DNA from: Porphyridium purpureum
Lineage: Eukaryota
DNA: 64,000 nucleotides
Reading direction: 5' to 3'
NCBI GenBank assembly: GCA_008690995.1
Contig: VRMN01000008.1
Coordinates: forward strand, 434,001 to 498,000
Under the pieces are notes generated by a model, which was not told the DNA's origin, made no database searches, and worked only from the letters and a program-made list of their open reading frames with translations. The translations under genes and the position numbers were made by a program. Below, in pieces: positions 5,704 to 19,667 of this stretch (positions are counted from its first letter, which is position 1; every line of letters starts with the position of its first letter).

Positions 5704-6763
5704 GCTGAAACGGCGCCGCGAAAGCTTTACCGCTGCGATACGACACACACGACCGGTACGCTTCTTGAAGAAAAGTGCTTGTCTCTGTGGTTTTCCTTGC
5801 CGACTGCCTCGCGTTCGCCCTGTGTCTCTCGTCTCCACCTTTCTACCGGTCGCTCGCAGTCCATCAGAAGTGCGCGCGCCGTATTTATACCGCGTGCGGA
5901 GCGCTTGCGAATTTCTTCTTCGCGTTCCGCACGTGGTCCGGTCCCGGAATTTGGAACGAGTGTGGAGATGGTGACATGCGTGGCATGGAAGCATTGGATG
6001 GGCGGATGGAATCCGACCAGAGCACGGGCCTCATGAGCGACGTTTCCTACTCCTCGAGACAGGTGCAGCACACATGGCGTCAAGTGCAGCTTCCGCGCGA
6101 CCCTATGACAACCATCAGTGATGGAAGTGGTCTGGCCTCGCGGAAACATGCGCAGGCACCTCTGCGAAACACTTGCATGCACTCGCGCCGTCGCCGCGCT
6201 TCATCCCATGCTTTGGTAACGGACGAAGGTCGAGGAACGACGACTGTGGGAATGGTGGCGTCGGACCGCACAGCAGATGATGTTTCACGCGTTTGCAGGA
6301 CAAGGTCGTGCGGCTCGCTCAATACTGATATCAGCACCAACTCTTACTCTCACAATCGCATGCATTCTGTAGCCGGGGCGCAAAACGCATGCGTGCCTCC
6401 TTAACTTTATTGTTCTTTCAGCTCGCTAGGTTCGGGTAGCATGAACGCCATCAAGCTCAATGGACCAGTAGCGGCAAAGCTTTTGCGCGATCCTGCAAGA
6501 CCCGCCAGACGGATTGCTTGTTTTCTTAGTGCCTGTACGAGTTCCTGATGAGCAGGTGCCGCCGTTCGTCAGCCAGAGGTCAAAGGGATTGAGCGTTCTG
6601 ACGTATTCTGTCAGGATGGGCAAGATTGAGTGACACTGTGAATTTCTGGAACAGCGTTTGTTCTGTGTAACAACGACCAGATTTACTTAGTGACTAATAC
6701 TCAACACAAAAGGCTGGGCCGGAAGATCTATTGTAGACTAAATATGCCGCGGGCAAACTATTC

Positions 6764-8731
6764 TTAGTCGACCTCGTCGACTTGGACACCTCCAGTGCCT
6801 CCGGCCGCGCCGCCTGCTCCTCCCATGTCGGGCATGCCTCCCATGTCCGGAGCTCCACCACCGGCCTGGTACATCTTGGTCATGATCGGGTTCACCACGG
6901 CTTCGAGTGCCTTTTGCATTGAGGTGTATTCTTCAGTGCTTGCCTCCGAGTTGTCCTCCAGCCATTTGAGGCACTCCTCTACCTTATCCTCAATGGCCTT
7001 CTTGTCGTCGGCATCAAGCTTTCCGGCAATCTTCTCGTCTTGGATGGTGTTTCGCACGTTGTATGCGTAGTTCTCCAACCCGTTCTTTGCCTCTACGCGC
7101 GCCTTCATGATCTCATCCTCCGCCTTGTACTTCTCGGCATCCTGGACCATCTTCTCGATCTGGTCCTTCGACAGGCGACCCTTGTCGTTCGTGATTGTGA
7201 TCTTGCTCTTGTTTCCAGTCGACTTGTCCTCGGCAGACACGTTCAAGATACCGTTAGCATCGACATCAAAGGTCACCTCGATCTGCGGAACACCGCGGGG
7301 CGCCGGTGGAATACCAGACAGCTCAAACTTGCCGAGCAAGTTGTTGTCCTTGGTGCGCGCACGTTCACCTTCAAAGACCTGAATAAGCACACCTGGCTGG
7401 TTGTCAGCGTATGTCGAGAAGATCTGCTGCTTCTTGGTGGGGATCGTCGTGTTGCGCTTGATCAGCGTCGTCATCACACCACCAGCGGTCTCCAGACCCA
7501 GCGACAGTGGGGTCACATCGAGCAGCAAAAGATCCTGCGTCTTGGACGACGTATCACCTGTCAGAATGGCGGCCTGCACCGCAGCACCGTAGGCAACGGC
7601 CTCATCTGGGTTGATGGTCTTGCACAGTTCCTTGCCGTTGAAGAAGTCCTGCAGCAGCTGCTGCACCTTTGGCACTCGCGTAGAGCCGCCCACCAGCACG
7701 ATCTCGTCGACCTCCGACTTGCTCACCTTCGCCTCCTTCAGCACATGCTCTACGGGCTCCAACGTGCCGCGGAACAGGTCCATGCACAGCTCCTCAAACT
7801 TGGCGCGCGTGATGGACGAGTAAAAGTCAACACCGTCGTACAGCGCGTCAATCTCAATCGATGTCTGCGTGGCGGATGACAATGTCCTCTTTGCGCGCTC
7901 GCAAGCCGTGCGCAGACGGCGCATGGCGCGCGCCGAGTTCGGGCCCTGGGTGAGATCCTTCTTATTCTTGCGCTTGAATTCTTGCACAAAGAAGTTCACC
8001 AGACGGTTGTCAAAGTCCTCACCACCCAAGTGCGTGTCACCAGCGGTGGCCTTGACCTCAAAGACGCCCGTGTCGTCAATGCTCAGAAGAGACACATCGA
8101 ATGTTCCACCTCCCAGATCGTAAATGAGCACCATCTTCTCGGAGTGGGAGCCGCTTGCTTCCTTCCTGTCCAACCCGTAGGCAATCGCAGCCGCCGTTGG
8201 CTCGTTAATGATTCGCAACACATTCAGACCAGCAATCTGACCGGCATCCTTGGTGGCCAGACGCTGCGAGTCGTTGAAACGCGCAGGTACGGTCACAACC
8301 GCGTTCTTCACCTCCTTGGCAAGGTATGCCTCTGAGATTTCCTTCATCTTACCCAGCACCATGGCCGAGATTTCCTCTGGCATGAATGTCTTGGTCTCGC
8401 CCTTGTACTTGACCTCAATCTTGGGCTTGTTGTCCTCTGCGCCCACCACCTTGAACGGGAAGTGCTTGAGGTCCGCCTGCACGGACGGCGAGTCAAAGCG
8501 CAGACCAATCATTCGCTTTGCGTCAAACACCGTGTTGTGCGGGTTCATCGCCACCTGGTTCTTTGCCGCATCGCCGATGAGACGCTCCGTGTCTGTGAAC
8601 GCCACGTACGACGGCGTGGTTCGATTTCCTTGGTCGTTCGCAATGATCTCGACGCGATCATTCTGCCACACGCCCACGCACGAGTACGTGGTGCCCAAAT
8701 CAATACCCACTGCAACTCCTGTTGCCGCCAT
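6764..8731 (-). CDS. HSP70: Cytosolic Hsp70
   Basis: [37 protein letters not shown] repeats and C-terminal DEVD. Confidence 0.98.
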
Positions 8732-8877
8732 CTTGTCTTTCTCTCTGTGTGTACCTGCACTCTGTATCCTTTCCTCTCTGTGACAACGTCTCTCCTTCCG
8801 ATCTGCTGCGTTCTATCCTGCTTGACTCGTCTTCCCCGCGCGCGGACGACCGCAAGAAACTCGAGCCGCGGCCCGCC

Positions 8878-9003
8878 ATTTATACCAAGCCCACCAGCCG
8901 CGCAGTCGCGCCGGCTCTGTTGTTTCGCGGCGGTTTTGCAAGAACGGCCTTCGCGGTGGAACCGTCTAGTCGCTTCTGGCGCTCGTCTTCTAGGAGCTTC
9001 CAA
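8878..9003 (-). promoter_or_regulatory. Hsp70 promoter: TATA box plus imperfect heat-shock element
   Basis: TATAAAT on the minus strand at 8878-8884; nTTCnnGGAnnTTCn at 8987-9001 approximates the nTTCnnGAAnnTTCn HSE. Confidence 0.5.
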
Positions 9004-9646
9004 AGATGTCATCCGAAGAGTCGGTCTCAAAGATGACCGGATGACATAATGTCATCTGGAGTTGGGAAGAAGGACATGTCATCATGTTGGCGCGAGGAGG
9101 GTTGGCAGAGAGCGGCACGCGTGGTGAAGCGATGCCTCGGGAAGAAGCAGGGGCTCATGCGGCTCGGGTCGGTTGGAGAAGACGCGTAGGCTCGCGTGTC
9201 GAGGGTCAGGAATGGCAGTTTACTCGCAAATGTTTGGGCGTGGGGGGGTTTTACACGGGCACAGTGTGTATCGTAGCGCCGATTTCTGTCCTTGCGCCAC
9301 GACTCTGCATCAGCCGCAGGATCAAGCTGGGGCTCTGAAATCGAGAGGCGAAGGTTTGGACTGTGATCGTGTTTGGGCATTATGTGCTCTATCCCAACCT
9401 GCGACGCGACGTCTTACTCCTTGCCGCAGGTAAAGACATTCGTTGCCAAAGTAAATATTGCCCGCGCACTGGCCACACGGTCGGCCTCCATTGGCCAGTC
9501 CCTGCTGGAGATTGAAGAGGAGGCCGCTCCAATGTCAATGCCAGATGGACCGCATGGTGCATTCGCATGGAAGTGTTCCCCATGACCGCATGCACCACCA
9601 TCCAGCCCGAGATCTGTTTCTGTGTCTCACTGCTACGTCTGGGCAG

Positions 9647-10342
9647 TCAAAAAGGTTCATAGTGACCGAATTCGACAAACTTATCGCCCATCTGAAGAAC
9701 ATTCAGTGCCTCCAGGGCCCGACTCGCATCATGATCCGACTCAAACTGCGCAATCCAGCATGCGACTTCGCCGAGCGTGAGCCTCACCTTTTCTGACAAC
9801 GTCTGTGAGATGCGCCCTGCAAAAGGTGCCAGCTTCTCGTCCAACTCCTGTTCGGACACGTCACCACGATCGCCGCCGCGCACCGAGACAAATAGTAGTC
9901 GCGCAGGCGGAACGGCTGCTTCTTGTGCTTTCGGCAGAATTTGTTTCTTCGTGTTTTGTTGTTGGCGCTGCTGCTGCTGCTGCTTGCTCTTGGCCTTTGA
10001 AATCCCCAGCGTTCCGTCGATCCGCATGACTCGTTCCGAGGCGTGCTTCCCAAACTGCACGACCAACGGCTTCCCCAAAAACGCACTCCCGTTTAAGTTC
10101 AGCCGCGCCGCAGCAGCCGAGGCGACGTCCTCAAAGGAGACGAATGCCTGACCGCGCATCTTCTGACTGCGACTCACAAATACGTCCATCACACGGCCAT
10201 ACTGCGAGCCAGCCACGTACAACAGCTCGCGCAGCTTCTGCTTGGGTATATGATCATCGAGATTCTTTATGTACAACGTCTGATTTGGCCGTGGCGCGGC
10301 ATTCTCTGTCCCGCCCGCTTGTTCAGATGCCTGTGCCGCCAT
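9647..10342 (-). CDS. U1A/U2B'' snRNP protein (two RRMs)
   Basis: PNQTLYIKNL and VSRSQKMRGQAFVSF in RRM1 (loop closer to U1A SRSLKMRGQAF), a Gln-rich linker and a degenerate RRM2. Confidence 0.9.
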   Translation of the reverse strand: MAAQASEQAGGTENAAPRPNQTLYIKNLDDHIPKQKLRELLYVAGSQYGRVMDVFVSRSQKMRGQAFVSFEDVASAAAARLNLNGSAFLGKPLVVQFGKHASERVMRIDGTLGISKAKSKQQQQQRQQQNTKKQILPKAQEAAVPPARLLFVSVRGGDRGDVSEQELDEKLAPFAGRISQTLSEKVRLTLGEVACWIAQFESDHDASRALEALNVLQMGDKFVEFGHYEPF

Positions 10343-10860
10343 CGTGGCCTTTCGGAAGACCCACGCGCCGCAACGATCCAAACCACGCGAGCCGGCGCCG
10401 CATTGAAACGCAGAAATTGATCAGACGCACTAATGAGCGTCGGGTGTGCAGGTGCGTCCTCTGGAACCACGGCGGCGGGAACCAGTTCTCCGCACGGACG
10501 CCCTCCCGCTCCCGACATTGCTCTGATTCCCCACATCCCCGCAGCACCAACAAAGTACAGTGAAGCTGTACTTTCGGAGCACAGAACACGAGCCCGCACA
10601 CAGTACAGTTACCGTTACTTTCCGTGCGTTGCTGTGTGCCGACGCGTGTGCGCTTTGAATCTGCTCGCCGAATTCTTGGCCCTGTTCTGAAATCGGCGCA
10701 AGCGATGATTTTATGATTTCGACGTGGTGGTTCCGCTAGCGATCGTGGTTGACGGACGGACGGACCGACTGCGTGAACGATGATGGAAAACACGACGCAA
10801 GCGGCTCGCTCGCCTGGATGAGCTGACGAGCCGGCTTGCAAGCTGCTGGTTTGGCTCGCT

Positions 10861-10910
10861 GGCTTGTTGGCCTGTTGGCCTGTTGGCCCGTTGGCCTGTT
10901 GGCCTATGGG
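10861..10910. repeat. Imperfect tandem 8-mer (GGCCTGTT) x ~6
   Basis: ggcttgtt ggcctgtt ggcctgtt ggcccgtt ggcctgtt ggcctatg. Confidence 0.8.
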
Positions 10911-11582
10911 TCCGTCAACTGCGGGCATGTTTCATTTGGCAGCTTGAGCTGTCAGTGGAGTAGATAGACATGGAGGAGCGTATTATGATTGATCGGTGGT
11001 ACACACATATATGCGAGACGCGAGTGTGTGTAACAGACGAGCCGGGTTTGCGCGGTATCCAATCTAGTTTGTCTTCTCACTCGCCAGTCCAAGGCGGTGC
11101 TGAAAATGAATGTCGTCTTGCCAGTCATAAATAAGCCGCGGTAACCGGTAGAGCGGTTAGTAGTAGTAGGAGGAGTCATATGTAGTCATACTCAGTAGGC
11201 ATAGGTGCGTGTGAGGGACCGACTTCTTGTCGTTGGTGCTACGGTGGTGGGTTTTGACTTTTTGAAGGAGGGAGGAGGGAAAGAGGAGAGAGAGAGAGAG
11301 AAAGAGGGAGAGAGAGAGAAGGAACGAGAACGACGGAAGGTGGGAAGGCGGGGAGAAGGGAAGGGAGTTGGAGGGGTGGTGGGAGGGAAAGTGGACGGCG
11401 GTGGGCCAGGGGAGGGAGGATTCGGTGTGTACGGGTGTGAGTGAGAGTGTGTGTAGTTGTGTGTTAGGGCGGAAGAGGGAGTGGGGGTTTCGGGTGAGAG
11501 AAGCAGAGTTGGGTGGTCGGGTAGACAGAGGGTGGTGGGGGACCCGGTGTGGGTTTCCAACAGGGATCGGCCGGTGGGTGCG

Positions 11583-14090
11583 ATGGGGAAGGGCAAGGGG
11601 AATGTGGTGCTCACAAAAGATGCGAGTCGGAACGAGAAGCACGGGGACACGGCGGCCCCGGCGAAAAAGCGGTTGCCGTTCATGAGGCAGCGCTCGTCAA
11701 AGGTGGCCAGCACCGCGGGTGGGAGCTCGGCGCCCACATCTGCGCCGCCGTCGACGAATGCGACGTCAGGTAAGGATTCGGCGAGCAAAGCAAGTCCCGC
11801 GGCGGCGGCTTCAGTGCCGGACAACAGCAAGACCGCCGCGGCGTCTGCGCAGAATGCGGTAACGGCCGCAGCCGACACGCCGTCGGAGAAGGCGGGTGCG
11901 GCGGCGGCTGGAGCAGTTCCACAGGATCCGGAAACTGGCGGCCCGCGAAAGATCGGGCTGAAGCACATCGACTTTATCAACGTTCACCGCAAGAACTACA
12001 CGGGCAGAATCGAGCTTCTGCAAGGCTCGGTTGAATCATTGTCACCCGCTGATGAGACCGACTTGCTCATCGTTTACCTTCGCGAGCGTGGCGCACACAA
12101 GGCCAATCGCGACTCTGCATTGGCGGCGCTGAATCGGGGCGGCGTTTCGCTTGCGCAACTCGAGAAGGAGTCCAAACCCCAGCCGTCGTATCGCAGACAC
12201 TACCACTGCTGGCTCAGTCGGCAGATTCCGAAACCGCGTCCGGTAGGCTTTGAGTACAAGCGCCTACTTGTGTACGAGGATCCGGGCGAGGAGCTCACGC
12301 GCGACGACAACATTGTGCTTGACATCATGAAGTGCCTTACCACCGTGATTGGTGGTGATGTGCAAATTACCTCGGTCATGCTGCCGCTCTCTGGCGCTCT
12401 CTTGAGTGCATCCCTGCGAAAACACTTTGTCAAAGCGGCCGCCGAGGTATGCTTTGCGTGGATGACAATGGGTCTGCCGCTCCGCAACGTGCGCATTCTG
12501 CTGCCTGAGACCGATATCGGCAAGGATATTGTCGTATTCCAAGAGGTCAAGGAGAAGTTGCTGTCGCGCGGCCCCGAGATGTTTTTGGCCTCCACAAAGT
12601 ACGATGTCTTCTTCAGCTACGCCAAGGAGGATAAGGAGGCGGCGCATGAGATGATGAATTTTCTGCAGAGCAAGAACCCGGCGGTTCGCCTGTACGACGC
12701 GGAGCCGCGAGACATCAGCGTGCGCCAGCGCGGCGTGGTGCATGCACCTGTAATGGAAGCGATCAACCAGTCACGCGTGTTCCTGTCGCTGCTGTCTGAT
12801 GACTACTTCCACTCGGTCGAGTGCACAGAGGCGTTTTCGCTCGCATACTGCCGCGATTTCGACTCGCAAGGCAATTTCATTATTCCGCTCTTTTGGCGTA
12901 GCTGCGATTTGACACCGCTCGCCAGACGTCTGGTTGCAACCGAAGGTGTGGACTGTCGTGAGGCGTCGTTTGAGTCTGCCAAAGTTTTGCTAGAAGAAAT
13001 TCTGGCGGCGCTTGAGTCGCCCGCATCCCGAGATGGAACAGGCCTCGACGGAGACGAGGAAGGGCGGTCGCTGAACTCGGCCACGCGCGTGGATGAAGAC
13101 AAGGAGAAGATTAACATTGCGGAGAAGCTCATGATGATGAAGGACGAAAACGTCGAGCAGCAAGGCTTTGAGGTGCATGATATGCCTCAGGAAGAGGAAA
13201 CGGTAAGCCAAATCTTCTTTGACAAGGCGTGGCGCGACCAGTGGGCGATCGATTTCCGCACGCTTGTGTTTGGGCCACGCATTGGCGCGGGTGGTTTCGG
13301 TGAAGTTTACAAGGCGAAGTACAGGAACGAGATGGTGGCGGTCAAGACACTGCAAAAAGTGGACGACGACGATCAACAGGCGGTGATCGCCGAATTCATG
13401 GTGGAAATGAAACTCATGTCCAAGTTGAAACACCCGAACATTGTACCATTTTTGGGTGCTAGTGTGCAGCAGCCCAACCTGGCGATTGTCCTGGAATTCA
13501 TGCCGGGCGGCAGCTTGTACCGCGCGATTCACCGCAGGAGAAGGAATCATTTGGGGCCCTTCCCTCTGTTGAAGACCTTGTGGATTGCGTACGGTATTTC
13601 CAAGGGTATGGAGTACCTGCACTGCCAGTATCCGGTGATTATCCATCGCGATCTCAAGTCGCCGAATATTCTGCTGGGCTCGAACGTACACGAGGTGAAA
13701 CTAACTGACTTTGGCCTTTCGCGTCTGCGCGTCGCCACATACGTCAATACAGGACCGGGAGGCACACCCGAGTGGATGGCACCCGAATTGTTGCGGCAGG
13801 ATCCGTTTGATGAACGGTCCGACGTCTTTTCGTTCGGCGTCATCTTGTGGGAGCTCGTTGTGTGCGAAAAGCCCTGGCGAGACGACCACCCCATGCAAAT
13901 TGTGTTCAAGGTTGGCTCACGCGGCGAGAAACTGCAGGTACCGGCGGGTACGCAGTGTCCACCGGAACTCAAGGCAATGATTCTCGCGTGTTTCCAGGAA
14001 CAACCGACAAAGCGCCCGCGCTTCGGCGATCTGACCAAGCAGCTTGAGGTCATGGTGCAACAAGTGGAAGCAACGCGTAACAAGAAGTAG
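11583..14090 (+). CDS. Macro-like domain + TIR domain + Raf-like (TKL) Ser/Thr kinase fusion
   Basis: Kinase (~13270-14050): IGAGGFGEV, VAVK, HRDLKSPNILL, DFGLSR, GTPEWMAPE. TIR (~12600-13010): YDVFFSYAKED, AINQSRVFLSLLSDDYFHSVEC, IIPLFW. Macro-like (~12009-12560): IELLQGSV, DLLIV, ITSVMLPLSG. Confidence 0.9.
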   Translation: MGKGKGNVVLTKDASRNEKHGDTAAPAKKRLPFMRQRSSKVASTAGGSSAPTSAPPSTNATSGKDSASKASPAAAASVPDNSKTAAASAQNAVTAAADTPSEKAGAAAAGAVPQDPETGGPRKIGLKHIDFINVHRKNYTGRIELLQGSVESLSPADETDLLIVYLRERGAHKANRDSALAALNRGGVSLAQLEKESKPQPSYRRHYHCWLSRQIPKPRPVGFEYKRLLVYEDPGEELTRDDNIVLDIMKCLTTVIGGDVQITSVMLPLSGALLSASLRKHFVKAAAEVCFAWMTMGLPLRNVRILLPETDIGKDIVVFQEVKEKLLSRGPEMFLASTKYDVFFSYAKEDKEAAHEMMNFLQSKNPAVRLYDAEPRDISVRQRGVVHAPVMEAINQSRVFLSLLSDDYFHSVECTEAFSLAYCRDFDSQGNFIIPLFWRSCDLTPLARRLVATEGVDCREASFESAKVLLEEILAALESPASRDGTGLDGDEEGRSLNSATRVDEDKEKINIAEKLMMMKDENVEQQGFEVHDMPQEEETVSQIFFDKAWRDQWAIDFRTLVFGPRIGAGGFGEVYKAKYRNEMVAVKTLQKVDDDDQQAVIAEFMVEMKLMSKLKHPNIVPFLGASVQQPNLAIVLEFMPGGSLYRAIHRRRRNHLGPFPLLKTLWIAYGISKGMEYLHCQYPVIIHRDLKSPNILLGSNVHEVKLTDFGLSRLRVATYVNTGPGGTPEWMAPELLRQDPFDERSDVFSFGVILWELVVCEKPWRDDHPMQIVFKVGSRGEKLQVPAGTQCPPELKAMILACFQEQPTKRPRFGDLTKQLEVMVQQVEATRNKK

Positions 14091-14650
14091 AGATGTGCGG
14101 CAATGAAGAGGCGCGAGAGCCAGCATGCATTACACAGATGACGGCTTGGCGACTGCTGCGAGGTTCCCACCGATGCTTCTCCGCCCTCTCTCCCTCCCTC
14201 CTTTTATGATTTTTTTTCGTCTGGTGGAGAGAACACTTGTTGCTTGAAAGAAAGAAACTTTTATAATATGTTCAAAATCAACACTCTCCGCTCGTTCGTT
14301 CGTGCCCTTTATGAAACATCGCGGTACATGAAGTCTAGACATGCGTAAGCATAGACGGTGTGAAAGGCTTGGCAAGGCCGCCAAGAACGAGTCCAATTGC
14401 GCCTTAATGAGCTTGCGGTCAACAGTTGCGGAAGTGCCAAGTTCCTGTGCGCACTTTCCGAGCATCGCAGCGAGACATTGACGTTTCTAAGAATACGCAA
14501 ATGCGCTTTTCCATCCACTGGTCATCCGCCTCTTCTCTCCCCCTTGACCATGTAGGCATCTTCCTCTGGGCGTACACATTAGGAAAGAATCAGTCAAACA
14601 GGCCGGCCGCTTCCTGTGCTCTTTGCGCCAGTGTGGGAACTCGCAAATCT

Positions 14651-15481
14651 TTACTCTTTCGCAAACTGAATCTGCTTGAGCGTGTTGTGGACGCCTGTGC
14701 AGTAGATCGTTTTGCTGTGTCCGCAACGACAAATCATTACGCTCTTGTCCTCCTCTGCTTTCACCCTAATCGGCTCATATGAGGTGCCTCGCTCCTTGTT
14801 GACGTACGTGTGAAACCCGCCGCAGTATGGCTGCATATTACTGACGCCGCATGCGCAAAAGGAAACGACCTTGCCTTTCTTAAGGTCTTCTGCCCATGGT
14901 CCTTCGCCGTCATAGTCCACTGGCGGCTGACGTGCTGATTCTCGCGCATAGCAGGCACACTTTTTGGAAAAGTTTTCAGATCCTTCGCTGCAAACAAACC
15001 CGACATCAGGCTCGGTGAGCACCGCGCCAGCCGCAGCACGAGCGACCGCTTTTTGCTTCTTGACGGTCGAAATGAAAGCGCCCTTGGTGTCCGTACCCCC
15101 GCGGCGCACAGAATCTACCACACCAAGCCCTGAGCAGATGCTGCACTTCAGCACGCCCTTCCCCGAGCAAATAATGCACGTGCCAAGAGGGTCCGAACCC
15201 GACCCGCCGCAAGACTCGCACGTCATCTTTCCAGTTTCCTCACAAAATGGACACGGCTCCATTCCGGCCTTGTCCACACCTGGCGTGCGGATCACCCGCT
15301 TGATCAAATTCTCAAAAAAGCCGTTCTTCTCCGCACCCATCACCGTCACTGCGCGGCGCTCTACCTGGCCTCGATCACATCCAAACGCCCGTCCACCGCA
15401 AACGGCGCGCACGTCCACCGTCGCGACTTTTCCCCACGCACGTCGGCTGGGCCACGGCCCGCCACATACAAATCCCAACAT
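14651..15481 (-). CDS. DnaJ-type zinc finger fused to two CDGSH-type [2Fe-2S] motifs, probably plastid-targeted
   Basis: Four CxxCxxxG repeats (CPFCEETG, CESCGGSG, CIICSGKG, CSICSGLG), then CACGVSNMQPYCGGFH and CRCGHSKTIYCTGVH; transit-peptide-like start MLGFV. Confidence 0.82.
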   Translation of the reverse strand: MLGFVCGGPWPSRRAWGKVATVDVRAVCGGRAFGCDRGQVERRAVTVMGAEKNGFFENLIKRVIRTPGVDKAGMEPCPFCEETGKMTCESCGGSGSDPLGTCIICSGKGVLKCSICSGLGVVDSVRRGGTDTKGAFISTVKKQKAVARAAAGAVLTEPDVGFVCSEGSENFSKKCACYARESARQPPVDYDGEGPWAEDLKKGKVVSFCACGVSNMQPYCGGFHTYVNKERGTSYEPIRVKAEEDKSVMICRCGHSKTIYCTGVHNTLKQIQFAKE

Positions 15482-16025
15482 GGCCCAACCGCCCCACTTC
15501 GCGAATGACTCGGTGAGTCCGCGAAATCTCCTCGATCAATCCTTCCCGTGTCGGACGAGCTTCTCGGCGGACAAGTCCACGACTTCGACAAGCCACGCGT
15601 GCTAAGCACGACCGGATGAGACAGGCAAGCTACTCGAGATGCCTGTGTGTCCTTTCACGCCGAGCGACAGCGCCCACACAGGCCACGACAGCTCCGCACC
15701 CCAACCACCCCAACCACAAAAATCTCGCGCCGCCGCGCTCGTCTCGCGAACCCGAACAAAATTTACTCACCACAGGCCACTGTACATCAAGCACTGTACT
15801 TTCCGTGTTAAACAGAACAAAATTCATTCGACCAGTATTAATAAAATGGTTTAACTTATCGCATTTATTTATATTATCACTGTACTTGGGGGAGGAAGGT
15901 GAGGTACAGTATGTCGATGTACAAAGGGTTCAGTGGGTTTGGGTAAAAGAAGGGACAAGAGCGGGTCTCCCGGGGGAAGGACGACTGAGGTAAGTAGAGG
16001 TGGTGAGCTGGTTGGTGGCGGCGGC

Positions 16026-16415
16026 ATGGATGTGGGTAGGAGTGGGCGCAAAAGGGCGGGCATGGTTGGTGCCGCGGATACGCGAAGTGGGTTTCACGAC
16101 CCGGAGCAGACGCTCGGCGCTGTGGACGTAGAGCGCGCCGACGAGTTTAAAGAGGGCCCGCTATCGTTGCTGCTGGATGCGGTCAAGATGGAATTGCCAG
16201 TGCTCATCAATTTGCGCAGTAACCGAAAACTGTTTGCTCGCGTCAAGGCCTTCGATCGCCACTTTAATATGGTGCTAGTCGATGTCAAGGAAATGTGGCA
16301 AGAGACCGTCAAGACAAAGGGCGAAAAGGCAGGCCCGGTCATGCGCGAGCGATTTATTTCCAAGATGTTTTTGAGAGGCGACTCTGTCATTTTGGTGCTC
16401 AAGAACCCGCAATGA
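16026..16415 (+). CDS. SmD2: Small nuclear ribonucleoprotein Sm D2
   Basis: [49 protein letters not shown]; start 16026 or 16062. Confidence 0.95.
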
Positions 16416-17258
16416 TCATAAGCGTGGCGTGTCTTTTTTATATCAGCCGCCAGAGATCCACGCAAGAACTTGCTCCACTGCGCCTGGACCACGTCGAGAG
16501 CGTGAAAAGCGAGATCACTGATCGTCATGGCTCCGACGAGCTCGAGCACAGTTCTCACCAGGCCTGCTGTGATCGCTGCGGGACACGCGATCAGGCAAAA
16601 ATTGAGCAACGCCAATCAACTGGAATCGCTCTGGTATCAGTCCGTTCCTACTCTTCTCTGGACATCAGAATGGACCAAGCATCGAGCCGCCCAAGTGTCA
16701 GGGCAAAGTACACCGACTGCCGTATATTCTGCAACCCGTTGTCGAGACGCGGCAAATTGTGTGTCAACATATCATACTGTATCACAGCACAGCACACCTC
16801 AGGCAGAGCGGCCACGTCTATTCCCGCGCGCACAGATCTGACGACGTATCGTTTGGCGTCCTGCATGTGCAGCAGCTCCACGTCGAGTCTTTCATGCGCT
16901 CGACTTGCGCTTCAAGCGAAGAGTCGACGCGCCCACCCACTGTACCTTCCTCTTGTTCCCCACTGTACTCTATTCATTAACAGCCGTTCTTTGTCACTGG
17001 AATCGGCGACGTTGTTGAGTGCTCTTAGCCGCGGAGCGTTGACTCCGGAGAAGGAAAGGAAGCGGCTCAGGTTTGGGGGTTGTGGAGCAACATCACAGTC
17101 TGTCTCGCATTGGTGGCAGTCGACGACGGCGGCACAGGCTCACGCAGTGCGGAAACCGCGGCGTCCGGTTCGATCTGCGCGCGCGCGAGACTTTGCCATC
17201 CCGTGTGTGCGTTCACCGCAGGGTGCATGCGTCGCAACTCGAGACGAACCAAGGCAAC

Positions 17259-18446
17259 ATGTGGAGCCGCGTGTACTCGAGCGTGTTCGGCAGCTCGCAC
17301 GGGCAGATGACCGCGAGCGATTATGTCCAGGCGATGCGCGATGCGATCAACCAGGCCGAGGATGAGAGCCTTGCGGAGCAGGAGCAGAAGAAGGCGCGAG
17401 AAAAGGTCGCCGAGTGTGTGGACATGTTGCGCGCGATGCTGTTTAGTCCAGAAATAATGCTACGGTCGTCGGCAAGTATGGGCAAGGGGGCGGGGAAGGA
17501 CGCGGATCAGGCTGATTCTGCACATAGCAGGTCTACCAGCACGAAAAGCATCGACGCGGAAAAGGGTCCGCCAAGGTATGGCGGCTCGCCGCCGCATGGG
17601 GATAGCGCCGAGGCGATCAAGCACAGGCAGCAGGTGGATGATCTTGTGCACATGGCTGCCGAGGACGACCTTCTGCTGCTGGTCGGCGGGCATCTAGACG
17701 CAATGGCGTTTGAGACACGCAAGCACGCCGTGCAGGTGTTCAATAACCTGATTCGCCAAGAGGTGGAACCGGGCGTGTCCGTGCTTGACGTCGTTTCCAC
17801 GAAGGACATTGGGCTAGAGTTGGTGTGTACACTTGCCCGAGGATACGACTACCATGAGGCTGCGCTAAACTGCGGTGCCATGCTGCGCGAGATGCTCCGC
17901 AGCGAAGCGGCGGCCAAGTTGATTCTGAATGACCCGCTCATGTGGCGGTTGTTTGAGTGGGTGCAAGTGAGCGACTTTGATGTCGCGTCCGATGCGCAAA
18001 CCACATTTAAGGATCTACTCACACGGCACACTTCGTCAGTGGCAGAGTTCATCGAGCTCGAGTATGACCGCTTCTTCGAAAAATTCAACGCGCTGCTGCG
18101 ATCGCAAAACTACGTGGCTCGGCGCGTCTCTCTCAAGCTACTAGGCGAAATGCTGCTCGAGCGCGCAAACTTCAATGTGATGACGCGCTACATTGCGTCC
18201 GCGGACAACCTGAAACTCATCATGAACCTGCTGCTCGACAATCGCAAAAATATTCAGTATGAGGCCTTCCATGTATTTAAGATCTTTGTGGCCAACCCAA
18301 ACAAGACGCCGCAAGTGCGCAGCATTCTCGTGAAGAACAAGCAAAGAATGGTCGACTATCTGAATGTGTTTCTGACGGACCGCGACGACGAGCAATTTCA
18401 CGAAGACCGGATGATGATTATTGCAGACATTGAAGAGCTAGAATAA
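17259..18446 (+). CDS. MO25: MO25/CAB39 family armadillo-like kinase scaffold
   Basis: ALNCGAMLRE, FDVASDAQTTFKDLLTRH, NYVARRVSLKLLGE, IQYEAFHVFKIFVANPNK. Confidence 0.95.
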   Translation: MWSRVYSSVFGSSHGQMTASDYVQAMRDAINQAEDESLAEQEQKKAREKVAECVDMLRAMLFSPEIMLRSSASMGKGAGKDADQADSAHSRSTSTKSIDAEKGPPRYGGSPPHGDSAEAIKHRQQVDDLVHMAAEDDLLLLVGGHLDAMAFETRKHAVQVFNNLIRQEVEPGVSVLDVVSTKDIGLELVCTLARGYDYHEAALNCGAMLREMLRSEAAAKLILNDPLMWRLFEWVQVSDFDVASDAQTTFKDLLTRHTSSVAEFIELEYDRFFEKFNALLRSQNYVARRVSLKLLGEMLLERANFNVMTRYIASADNLKLIMNLLLDNRKNIQYEAFHVFKIFVANPNKTPQVRSILVKNKQRMVDYLNVFLTDRDDEQFHEDRMMIIADIEELE

Positions 18447-18758
18447 AGGCAAATCGTATATGGCTTTAATCGACAGCAGTGCACCATTCCGTTTCAGCAG
18501 TTCCTTTCGCCGCCTTTCCTTCATTTTGATTCTAATGGATCATTTGCGTTGCTTAGTTTTGCCGCCAAGGTAAACATTTAACATTTCAAGAGCGCGTATC
18601 CCTGAAAAGCCCATCGTCGTGCTGTGAATCAATTTAGTTTTCTGTCAATCTTGCTTAGTTCGCGTCTCTACCCAGGTCAAAGTGCCTAACGAGGCTCGCC
18701 GAAAAGACCGAGCAGAAGCTCTACAGTTGCGTCCTAGCTACCCTTCCTCCTACAACAC

Positions 18759-19667
18759 TCAGGCTCGGAGCGTTTGCGCCGCGATGCACCCATGAGGTTG
18801 CGTCGGCGCGCTTAATCTATCGCCCAACTGAGGGCAGTCGTAGTGTATGGTTGAAGTGCAGCAATCGCCTGTGGCAGTGCACGCGCACACTGCGTCAAAC
18901 TGCTGTTGCAAGTCGCGCAGCTTCACAGCATCCCACATGTACCCAGTATACAGGGCAAAGCACATATCGTGCTGCTGCCTCGTACGATCTGCACAACAAT
19001 CCTCGACCAGCGTGACACCGTAGCCTCGGCAGAAGGCGCCGTGGGCCGTATGCTGTACGCACGCAGAAGTCACCAAGCCGCACACCAAAACGTGGCTTAC
19101 ACCCATCTCCGTCAAGTACTCATGGAGTGCTGTATCGTGGAACGCGTCCCAAACAGGCTTGGCGATCACCATTTCGTTCGGCAGAGCTGCAGCAAACGGT
19201 TCCGGATTCTGGATGCCGTCCACGCGCGCCATCTTGTTCGGGTTCAGCGCAACAAACTGAGGTATCATGCGGCTTCGTGCTCCGTCATCATACACTGCCC
19301 GAATGTGCACAACAACGCAATCTGGGTCGCGGCGCGCCAACTCTAGCAGTCGTGCAATGTTGGGCGCAAATTCAGGAAACTCGCCACGAATCTGCGCGTT
19401 CAGACTCCAGTATTCTTGTTGCACGTCTACAACCAAGAGTGCGTGACGGCTACGCAGCGCCGGCAGCCGCGGGACCACTGGAACCAACCTGGGCGCCACA
19501 GAAGTTTCCGAAGCAGCTGCCATTGCCGATTCGGCTTGCGCGTCTTTGGCCAGGACTGTCGCCGGAGCCGCGGCTTCCGCTGAAACGCCGCGCTCAGGTT
19601 CGCTGGAAATGTGCTCCAACGAACAGTCTGGAATGAGCGCGCGCGCTAACGCTTCGTTCGGACTCAT
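18759..19667 (-). CDS. Isochorismatase-family cysteine hydrolase
   Basis: ALLVVDVQ (Asp), IAKPVWDAF (Lys) and CGLVTSACVQHTA (Cys) form the catalytic triad; VEDCCAD. Confidence 0.88.
   Translation of the reverse strand: MSPNEALARALIPDCSLEHISSEPERGVSAEAAAPATVLAKDAQAESAMAAASETSVAPRLVPVVPRLPALRSRHALLVVDVQQEYWSLNAQIRGEFPEFAPNIARLLELARRDPDCVVVHIRAVYDDGARSRMIPQFVALNPNKMARVDGIQNPEPFAAALPNEMVIAKPVWDAFHDTALHEYLTEMGVSHVLVCGLVTSACVQHTAHGAFCRGYGVTLVEDCCADRTRQQHDMCFALYTGYMWDAVKLRDLQQQFDAVCACTATGDCCTSTIHYDCPQLGDRLSAPTQPHGCIAAQTLRA

What the first reader, a model, noticed from the sequence alone, without database searches (positions are those of the whole stretch)
11583..14090. Macro-like + TIR + Raf-like kinase in one protein: candidate innate-immune or nucleotide-signal receptor kinase in an alga
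Seen: one ORF with a disordered N-terminus, an alpha/beta domain with macrodomain-like motif order (IELLQGSV ~ 'i...GDI', DLLIV, ALAAL, ITSVMLPLSG ~ 'SIA.P.isTG'), a clear TIR domain and an intact TKL kinase with CTR1/EDR1-like GTPEWMAPE. Known: TIR domains signal in animal (TLR/MyD88 to IRAK kinases), plant (TNL) and bacterial (Thoeris) immunity, and in type II Thoeris a Macro domain senses a TIR-made ADPR derivative. Inference: this protein could sense an ADPR-type signal through the Macro-like domain, oligomerise through TIR and signal through the kinase. I know of no characterised protein with this three-domain order.
Basis: partly seen in the sequence, partly recalled or inferred. Interest (0 to 1): 0.88.

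Follow-up and report, generated by a model that had tools for sequence, protein, structure and literature searches.

The report
Red-algal macro-TIR Raf-like kinase
This red-algal gene joins a hidden macro domain, a TIR domain and an intact plant-type Raf kinase in one protein, kept from hot-spring unicells to seaweeds, but the macro-TIR part lacks the residues that its bacterial and invertebrate relatives keep for binding ADP-ribose and cutting NAD, so it likely works as a disarmed immune module reused as a switch for the kinase.

Summary
Window 11583-14090 is one 835-aa ORF, covered by single unspliced RNA contigs. Residues 123-328 have a macro fold that Pfam misses (Z 15.6 to PARP9 macro 2), followed by a TIR domain and a CTR1-like kinase with all catalytic motifs. 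The same three-domain protein occurs across red algae, including Galdieria and Cyanidioschyzon; its macro domain is as conserved as its kinase. The macro-TIR pair is homologous end to end to an uncharacterised macro-TIR family of bacteria, some archaea, invertebrates and a haptophyte, while the kinase is eukaryotic. Those relatives keep the adenine-binding Asp, the phosphate-loop Gly and (prokaryote-type) the TIR catalytic Glu; 0 of 94 red-algal copies keep any of them. Immune function is unproven. TIR+kinase was already tabulated for Pyropia and Rhodosorus; the macro domain was not found in print. This scan had noted the Cyanidioschyzon member and the invertebrate macro-TIR family before on other DNA.

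The parts
11583..14090 (+). Whole ORF, 835 aa, single exon: disordered N-terminus, macro, TIR, linker, Raf-like kinase
   Evidence: RNA contigs; 82 of 97 homologues hold all three domains
11583..11942 (+). Low-complexity, poorly conserved N-terminus (residues 1-120); 33 of 97 homologues begin with a myristoylation-like MG-x-x-x-S motif, this copy (MGKGKG) does not match it
   Evidence: 15% mean identity to homologues
11949..12566 (+). Macro-fold domain (residues 123-328) with degenerate ADP-ribose pocket motifs (Ser149, Tyr165, Leu273) and near-invariant SYRRHYHCWLS and YEDPG segments
   Evidence: motif counts; 74% mean identity, 106 of 215 columns at least 95% conserved
12591..13019 (+). TIR domain (residues 337-479) with Ala417 at the catalytic Glu position
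   Evidence: Pfam TIR_2; VIA Z 14.5 to TIRAP, 14.4 to RPS4/RRS1; alignment to plant TIRs; counts
13020..13247 (+). Mostly flexible linker (residues 480-555) with a conserved helix (AEKLMM) and a conserved FFD..W motif before the kinase
   Evidence: pLDDT under 50 at model 360-390 and 403-418; conservation
13248..14057 (+). Raf-like (TKL) kinase domain with GAGGFG, VAVK, alphaC Glu, HRDLKSPN, DFG, GTPEWMAPE
   Evidence: best PDB sequence match CTR1 E 1.1e-69; Foldseek ranks 1-3 CTR1; motif counts

Best explanation
This is one intact red-algal gene for a macro + TIR + Raf-like kinase protein whose macro-TIR part has lost the residues used elsewhere to bind ADP-ribose and cleave NAD+, so it likely acts as a non-enzymatic interaction module that would cluster the protein through TIR contacts and so switch the kinase on. 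Shown: the three domains, one ORF and transcript-like contigs, intact kinase motifs, presence across red algae, full-length homology of macro-TIR to a bacterial/invertebrate family, and loss of the pocket and catalytic residues in every algal copy aligned. Predicted: macro and TIR pack as one rigid unit (pTM 0.85) that is tethered loosely to the kinase (pTM 0.55 with the kinase included). Inferred: a partner (protein or nucleic acid more likely than free ADP-ribose) binds the conserved basic/aromatic macro surface, TIR-TIR assembly brings kinase domains together, and they activate each other and phosphorylate a downstream stress or MAPK-type cascade, like MyD88 plus IRAK in one chain. Inferred history: an NAD+/ADP-ribose conflict module was fused to a eukaryotic Raf-like kinase before the split of Cyanidiophyceae from other red algae and was then disarmed and kept for a general signalling job.
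For: Macro fold; macro-TIR collinear with relatives (alignment; hhalign 99.8%, E 2e-30). Asp: 200 of 206 prokaryote-type and 13 of 13 animal-type relatives against 0 of 94 algal; phosphate-loop Gly 203 of 206, 12 of 13, 0 of 94; TIR Glu 204 of 206 against 0 of 94. The Asp position is filled by ten different residues in algae, which argues against a kept adenine contact. These residues bind ligand in OiMacroD and ThsA macro and are needed for NADase activity (passages of PMC5413906, bioRxiv 2024.01.03.573942, PMC7282519). The module is still 74% identical on average, like the kinase at 76%, so it has a strong non-enzymatic constraint. Kinase motifs kept in all copies that cover them, with few variants. 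The fold search lists scaffold TIRs (TIRAP, MAL, MyD88) among tied top TIR matches. Orthologues in Galdieria and C. merolae.
Against: No binding, oligomer or kinase assay exists. Gly271 in the phosphate loop is invariant in 94 of 94 algal copies and a Glu one residue before the catalytic position is kept in 92 of 94, so a remodelled pocket is not excluded; the residue mapping rests on sequence alignment, not on inspection of coordinates. The algal TIR lacks the BB-loop-region Trp of its relatives and is split by long insertions in Cyanidioschyzon-type copies, which may not suit filament formation. Plant-type enzyme TIRs score as well as scaffold TIRs in the fold search.
Confidence: 0.48

Rival explanations
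1. Nucleotide-sensing receptor kinase: a remodelled macro pocket binds ADP-ribose or another nucleotide signal made by a different TIR enzyme and this activates the kinase.
For: True macro fold; relatives keep an intact pocket; near-invariant segments SYRRHYHCWLS (92 of 97), YEDPG (95 of 97), SGALLS (93 of 97); red algae have other TIR proteins (PMC9806590 passages; PMC13142454 Supp. Table 1 rows); ThsA macro binds His-ADPR.
Against: Asp, Ser and Gly pocket positions replaced in 94 of 94 algal copies, partly by bulky residues (Tyr, Leu); the loop is wholly different in Galdieria and Cyanidioschyzon-type copies.
Confidence: 0.2
2. The macro-TIR unit is an autoinhibitory cap on the kinase, released by phosphorylation or partner binding, as the N-terminal regions of Raf and CTR1 are (recalled), with no TIR clustering.
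For: N-terminal position and conserved linker helix; loss of enzymatic residues fits equally.
Against: The model with the kinase shows no confident macro-TIR/kinase arrangement (pTM 0.55 against 0.85); alignment depth was only 87 close sequences, so this is weak.
Confidence: 0.17
3. Dedicated immune receptor with an integrated decoy: the dead macro-TIR baits pathogen effectors and the kinase triggers defence.
For: One of two Pyropia yezoensis TIR+Pkinase genes rose 1.5-1.6-fold in Pythium infection (PMC6928737 Table 1 and section 2.2.2; I did not check that these are orthologues); sensor-type plant TIRs lack the Glu.
Against: Very slow evolution, 62-90% identity across mesophilic red algae; low copy number where named (two in Chondrus); kept in the reduced genome of C. 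merolae; neighbours in the window are housekeeping genes; the second Pyropia gene did not change significantly.
Confidence: 0.1
4. The TIR keeps a non-canonical NAD+-using activity through Glu416 and the macro holds the product.
For: Glu416, Cys414, Ser411 and the DCRE motif are kept.
Against: The same Glu/Asp sits next to the real catalytic Glu in active-type relatives, so it is structural; Galdieria has Met there and the Cyanidioschyzon-type copies Ser/Thr.
Confidence: 0.05

Closest known systems
Plant B-group Raf-like MAPKKKs (Arabidopsis CTR1, EDR1, SIS8)
   Same: Kinase domain: best PDB match by sequence (E 1.1e-69) and fold (TM 0.92 on target, 42% identity); N-terminal regulatory region before a C-terminal kinase.
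   Different: No EDR1/CTR1 domain (PF14381); macro-TIR instead; algal kinases form their own group (89/80) outside the plant B3 group in my 40-row tree.
Red-algal 'TIR+Pkinase' entries (Pyropia yezoensis py01330/py08661 in PMC6928737; Rhodosorus P007725 in PMC13142454 Supp. Table 1; C. merolae 'Raf-related MAPKKK, theta-type')
   Same: Same gene family: the Rhodosorus row shows the same macro sequence; C. merolae protein is an orthologue.
   Different: Those sources list only TIR and kinase (or kinase alone); no macro domain, no origin, no residue loss, no experiment.
Uncharacterised bacterial/archaeal macro-TIR proteins (about 340 aa) and invertebrate macro-TIR-TIR-TIR proteins
   Same: Full-length homology of the two-domain module, about 20-30% identity, shared CWLS, W..GLP and DCRE motifs.
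   Different: They keep the ADP-ribose pocket motifs and a TIR Glu (animal-type mostly in the second TIR) and have no C-terminal Raf kinase; some bacterial ones have an unrelated N-terminal kinase.
Type II Thoeris (ThsB TIR makes His-ADPR, ThsA macro binds it)
   Same: TIR and macro domains in one signalling context.
   Different: Two genes, active TIR, ligand-binding macro with the adenine Asp and a membrane effector; no ThsA_Macro or PADLOC match to the algal macro.
Animal TLR-MyD88-IRAK signalling
   Same: Non-catalytic TIR coupled to a TKL kinase (works-like analogy; IRAK being TKL is recalled).
   Different: No LRR, membrane span or death domain; one polypeptide; different TIR lineage (Rhodosorus TIR 'not in supported clade').

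Membership tests
Macrodomain superfamily (fold) | Alpha/beta/alpha macro fold over the whole domain | tested here: met
   VIA Z 15.6, rmsd 3.3, 181 aligned; Foldseek top hits macros; Atlas structure rows PARP and macroH2A TM 0.66-0.70
Macrodomain superfamily (fold) | Sequence link to known macros | tested here: met
   Indirect: hhalign 99.8% to bacterial family, of which 3 of 35 weakly match Pfam Macro (best E 0.003) and 1 of 4 bacterial-type proteins scanned weakly matches NCBIfam ADP-ribose-binding models; no direct match for the algal domain
ADP-ribose-binding macrodomains | Adenine-binding Asp of the GD(I/L) motif | tested here: not met
   0 of 94 algal copies; Ser149 here
ADP-ribose-binding macrodomains | Glycine-containing diphosphate loop (S/T-G-x-x-G) | tested here: not met
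   Leu at the Gly column in 92 of 94, Asp in 2; an invariant Gly lies two residues earlier, so a shifted loop is possible
ADP-ribose-binding macrodomains | Measured ligand binding | not testable with these tools
   needs ITC or thermal shift
TIR domain | TIR fold and Pfam profile | tested here: met
   TIR_2 above cut-off; Z 14.5 to TIRAP
NADase TIRs | Catalytic Glu in helix alphaC | tested here: not met
   Ala417; 0 of 94 algal copies (Ala 83, Thr 4, Ser 3, Asn 2, Leu 2)
Scaffold TIRs (MyD88/MAL type) | TIR-TIR self-assembly | not tested
Raf-like TKL kinases | Catalytic motifs GxGxxG, VAxK, alphaC Glu, HRDLKxxN, DFG, GTxxWMAPE | tested here: met
Plant B3 Raf group (CTR1/EDR1) | N-terminal EDR1/CTR1 domain PF14381 | tested here: not met
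   no match; present in the plant hits
Plant B3 Raf group (CTR1/EDR1) | Kinase nested in or sister to the B3 clade | tested here: inconclusive
   plant B3 kinases score highest after the algal family (266-277 bits) but the 40-row tree does not make them sisters; few other TKL groups sampled
Type II Thoeris | Active TIR plus separate TM-macro effector | tested here: not met
   single soluble protein, no Glu, no ThsA model match
TLR/MyD88/IRAK pathway | LRR ectodomain, membrane span or death domain | tested here: not met
   none in Pfam scan

The most novel reading that the evidence does not exclude
Red algae turned an ancient macro-TIR NAD+/ADP-ribose immune module, shared with bacteria and invertebrates, into a one-chain receptor kinase whose rebuilt macro pocket reads a new small-molecule or infection signal and fires a Raf cascade through TIR assembly: a TIR-to-kinase immune pathway that arose independently of animal TLR-MyD88-IRAK.
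Probability: 0.2. Interest if true: 0.86.

Novelty: new variant of a known kind. Interest (0 to 1): 0.63.

Why it matters
Red-algal signalling and immunity are poorly known, and seaweed crops suffer oomycete disease. Here is a lineage-wide, slowly evolving kinase with a regulatory module not described for any Raf-like kinase in the papers searched. It is a clean case of an enzyme-type immune module being disarmed and reused for signalling, and it can be tested at once because C. merolae, which can be transformed (recalled), carries an orthologue. It also exposes an unannotated macro-TIR family in bacteria and invertebrates with intact ADP-ribose and NADase motifs.

Tried and rejected
Separate genes or a splice between TIR and kinase: rejected (transcriptome-derived homologues). 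Direct Pfam/PDB sequence match for the macro part: none. Atlas feature search for residues 121-335 gave only scores of 0.82 or less, a lead at best. PADLOC: only generic kinase and TIR matches, none to the macro part, in 20 proteins scanned. A conserved bacterial operon or defence-island setting: not found; the largest neighbour family was in 5 of 39 loci, and of 79 neighbours scanned only 2 had SIR2-like domains, 1 a caspase-helicase, 1 a kinase-TPR, 1 a transposase. Kinase inherited together with macro-TIR from a bacterial kinase fusion: rejected; those kinases are N-terminal and score 34-65 bits against 266-277 for plant B3 kinases. Cyanobacterial (plastid) origin: neither shown nor rejected (AU p 0.051, 26 rows; a larger test did not finish). 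No whole genome was held, so copy number in this organism was not counted. Lack of PARPs as a reason for pocket loss: not usable, Chondrus has PARP homologues (PMC4245714 passages). ecTIR-DC 8 as the name of the invertebrate family comes from an earlier scan note; my look-up showed only other ecTIR-DC rows, so I did not confirm it. Two papers that may bear on novelty were not held (Burroughs and Aravind 2020 J Bacteriol; Gao et al. 2018 Plant Physiol).

Full report
Observation. The window has one 835-aa ORF at 11583-14090 (+) among housekeeping genes. Pfam finds TIR_2 at 342-460 and a protein kinase at 563-821, and nothing at 121-336. RNA contigs cover the coding region in one piece in 3 of 4 runs laid (X8, on record as RNA; X10 and X2, RNA by guess; X2 starts 50 bases inside the ORF) and in two pieces in X3; three end at 14217-14220, none shows a joint, and 10900-11534 is uncovered. 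Contigs cannot show strand or level, but this fits one unspliced mRNA. The nearest named homologues are Porphyridium and Timspurckia at 89-90%, so the source is inferred to be a Porphyridium-type red alga.

The macro domain is real. An AlphaFold2 model of residues 121-480 on 95 sequences has pLDDT 84 and pTM 0.85. Against 48,161 representative chains the best match is PARP9 macro 2 (Z 15.6, rmsd 3.3 A, 181 residues), then PARP14, OiMacroD, Af1521 and macroH2A; TIR domains match the second half (TIRAP Z 14.5, RPS4/RRS1 14.4, MyD88 14.1). Foldseek agrees. With the kinase included, pTM falls to 0.55 and the linker is low-confidence: macro and TIR are predicted to be a rigid pair loosely tied to the kinase.

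The protein is common to red algae. A search with residues 121-480 returned 97 proteins (this one included) among 7,993 candidates scored, 62-90% identical; every one whose source name shows an organism is red-algal. 82 of the 97 hold all three domains; 15 are partial. Mean identity to this protein is 15% in the N-terminus, 74% in macro, 74% in TIR, 31% in the linker and 76% in the kinase. A profile of the macro part searched against 1.84 billion representatives gave 253 hits at E 0.001, 150 listed; these add Galdieria sulphuraria and C. merolae orthologues, the latter with long insertions that split the TIR. Among the listed hits that I scanned (77, 34 proteins), a C-terminal Raf-like kinase was seen only in red-algal or red-algal-like proteins; 103 weaker hits were not shown.

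Origin of the parts. The next relatives of the macro domain almost always carry a TIR right after it: 67 of 77 scanned had a TIR_2 match. The algal macro-TIR aligns end to end with stand-alone proteins of about 340 aa (hhalign 99.8%). One such protein found 39 loci in GTDB genomes of Cyanobacteriota, Chloroflexota, Planctomycetota, Acidobacteriota, Bacteroidota, Pseudomonadota, Actinomycetota, Myxococcota and Methanotrichaceae archaea, with no conserved operon; fusions to extra TIRs, NUDIX, HSP70, pYEATS, CHAT, T6SS sheath and N-terminal kinases suggest conflict systems by inference only. The module also occurs in eukaryotes: a 13-sequence macro-TIR-TIR(-TIR) clade whose nearest Atlas clusters are molluscan, matching sea urchin, Lingula and Trichoplax rows in PMC13142454 Supp. 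Table 1, and a Pavlovales protein. Red-algal copies form one clade (SH-aLRT 97-100) on a very long stem. In unrooted trees they fall on the same side as the animal-type clade against the prokaryote-type rows (86 with LG+C20, 57 rows; 93 with 31 rows after dropping 26, long branches among them), which may be shared ancestry or long-branch attraction; a grouping with Nostoc is not rejected (p 0.051). So the donor is unresolved. The kinase is eukaryotic: best PDB match CTR1 by sequence and fold; the Galdieria kinase's closest single-domain hits are the other algal macro-TIR kinases (46-52%), then EDR1/SIS8-type plant and green-algal kinases (40-44%); algal kinases group together (89/80, with one partial Cyanidiococcus kinase inside) far from the bacterial kinases fused to macro-TIR. 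The fusion therefore likely predates the deepest split of red algae.

The module is disarmed in algae. In 313 macro-TIR segments that I could align (of 362 proteins then held), the GD-motif Asp is present in 200 of 206 prokaryote-type and 13 of 13 animal-type rows and 0 of 94 algal rows; the following Ser in 201, 13 and 0; the phosphate-loop Gly in 203, 12 and 0; the first TIR's catalytic Glu in 204, 4 and 0; 10 of the 13 animal-type proteins show the Glu in a second TIR. 'Prokaryote-type' is my label; most of those records are unnamed. Cyanidioschyzon-type copies, not in these counts, lack the residues too (read by eye). The roles of these residues come from passages of PMC5413906, bioRxiv 2024.01.03.573942 and PMC7282519. 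Against a fully dead pocket: Gly271 is invariant and Glu416 nearly so, and I could not inspect coordinates. Kinase motifs are intact: GAGGFG 91 of 97, HRD(L/V/C)KSPN 87, DFG 86, GTPEWMAPE 85, with most misses being gaps in partial proteins.

Mechanism. The simplest account of a module that has lost its chemistry but is as conserved as a kinase core is a protein-interaction device. I commit to partner-triggered TIR clustering that activates the Raf-like kinase (0.48), with a remodelled nucleotide sensor (0.2), autoinhibitory cap (0.17), immune decoy (0.1) and residual enzyme (0.05) as rivals. The only functional hint in print is weak: one of two Pyropia TIR+Pkinase genes rose about 1.5-fold in Pythium infection (PMC6928737, passages and section 2.2.2).

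Novelty. TIR+kinase in red algae is tabulated in PMC6928737 and in PMC13142454 Supp. Table 1 (abstract, passages, section 5 and table rows seen), without the macro domain. Ten library searches and passages of PMC9806590, PMC7159879, PMC13069868, PMC6321704 and PMC4245714 showed no description of a macro-TIR-kinase; subscription papers, two papers not held and unseen supplements may contain one. This scan had noted the C. merolae member (e1-553118) and the invertebrate macro-TIR family (e1-8804832) on other DNA; I reached both independently and treat those notes as leads, not support. Verdict: a new variant of Raf-like kinase with an undescribed, disarmed macro-TIR regulatory module; interest 0.63.

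Noticed in passing
L001-L039 (about 6001-7050 in most loci); proteins P0104-P0362: Uncharacterised stand-alone bacterial and archaeal macro-TIR family with intact ADP-ribose pocket motifs and TIR Glu, patchy across phyla, no conserved operon, no PADLOC model for the macro part: candidate single-gene NAD+ conflict system.
   Followed up: partly
P0117, P0142, P0143, P0168, P0220, P0232 and others: Animal-type macro-TIR-TIR-TIR proteins; macro unannotated in PMC13142454 Supp. Table 1 for sea urchin, Lingula and Trichoplax (two macros in Trichoplax); first TIR often Gln, second TIR Glu.
   Followed up: partly
P0148 (Pavlovales sp. CCMP2436), P0241: Haptophyte macro-TIR-TIR with intact macro motifs, placed weakly among prokaryote-type rows (80), not with red algae: possibly a separate acquisition.
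   Followed up: partly
window 11583-11600 and homologues P0002-P0097: 33 of 97 homologues start with a myristoylation-like motif (mostly MGN..S), hinting at membrane anchoring; this copy starts MGKGKG and does not match, and the two closest named relatives carry MGN at residue 6.
   Followed up: partly
P0203, P0206: The same macro subfamily fused to an ADP-ribosyltransferase-like domain (Pfam ART in P0203; P0206 similar by eye, two macros) instead of TIR.
   Followed up: no
P0171, P0174, P0234: Macro-TIR fused to type VI secretion sheath domains (VipA/VipB), in P0174 also with kinase and FHA domains.
   Followed up: no
L003:6013-8430, L017:4731-7209: Tandem macro-TIR duplicates in two Uabimicrobium genomes; in L003 near a kinase-TPR gene.
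   Followed up: no
window 6764-19667: Neighbours are ordinary: HSP70-like 6764-8731 and Sm-like 16026-16415 (by eye, not scanned), RRM protein 9647-10342, zinc-finger/CDGSH protein 14651-15481, Mo25 17259-18446, isochorismatase 18759-19667.
   Followed up: partly
window 11890; 11275-11333: Run X10 has a 9-base in-frame insertion in the Ala-rich N-terminus and several single-base differences; a GA-rich repeat lies upstream of the gene.
   Followed up: no
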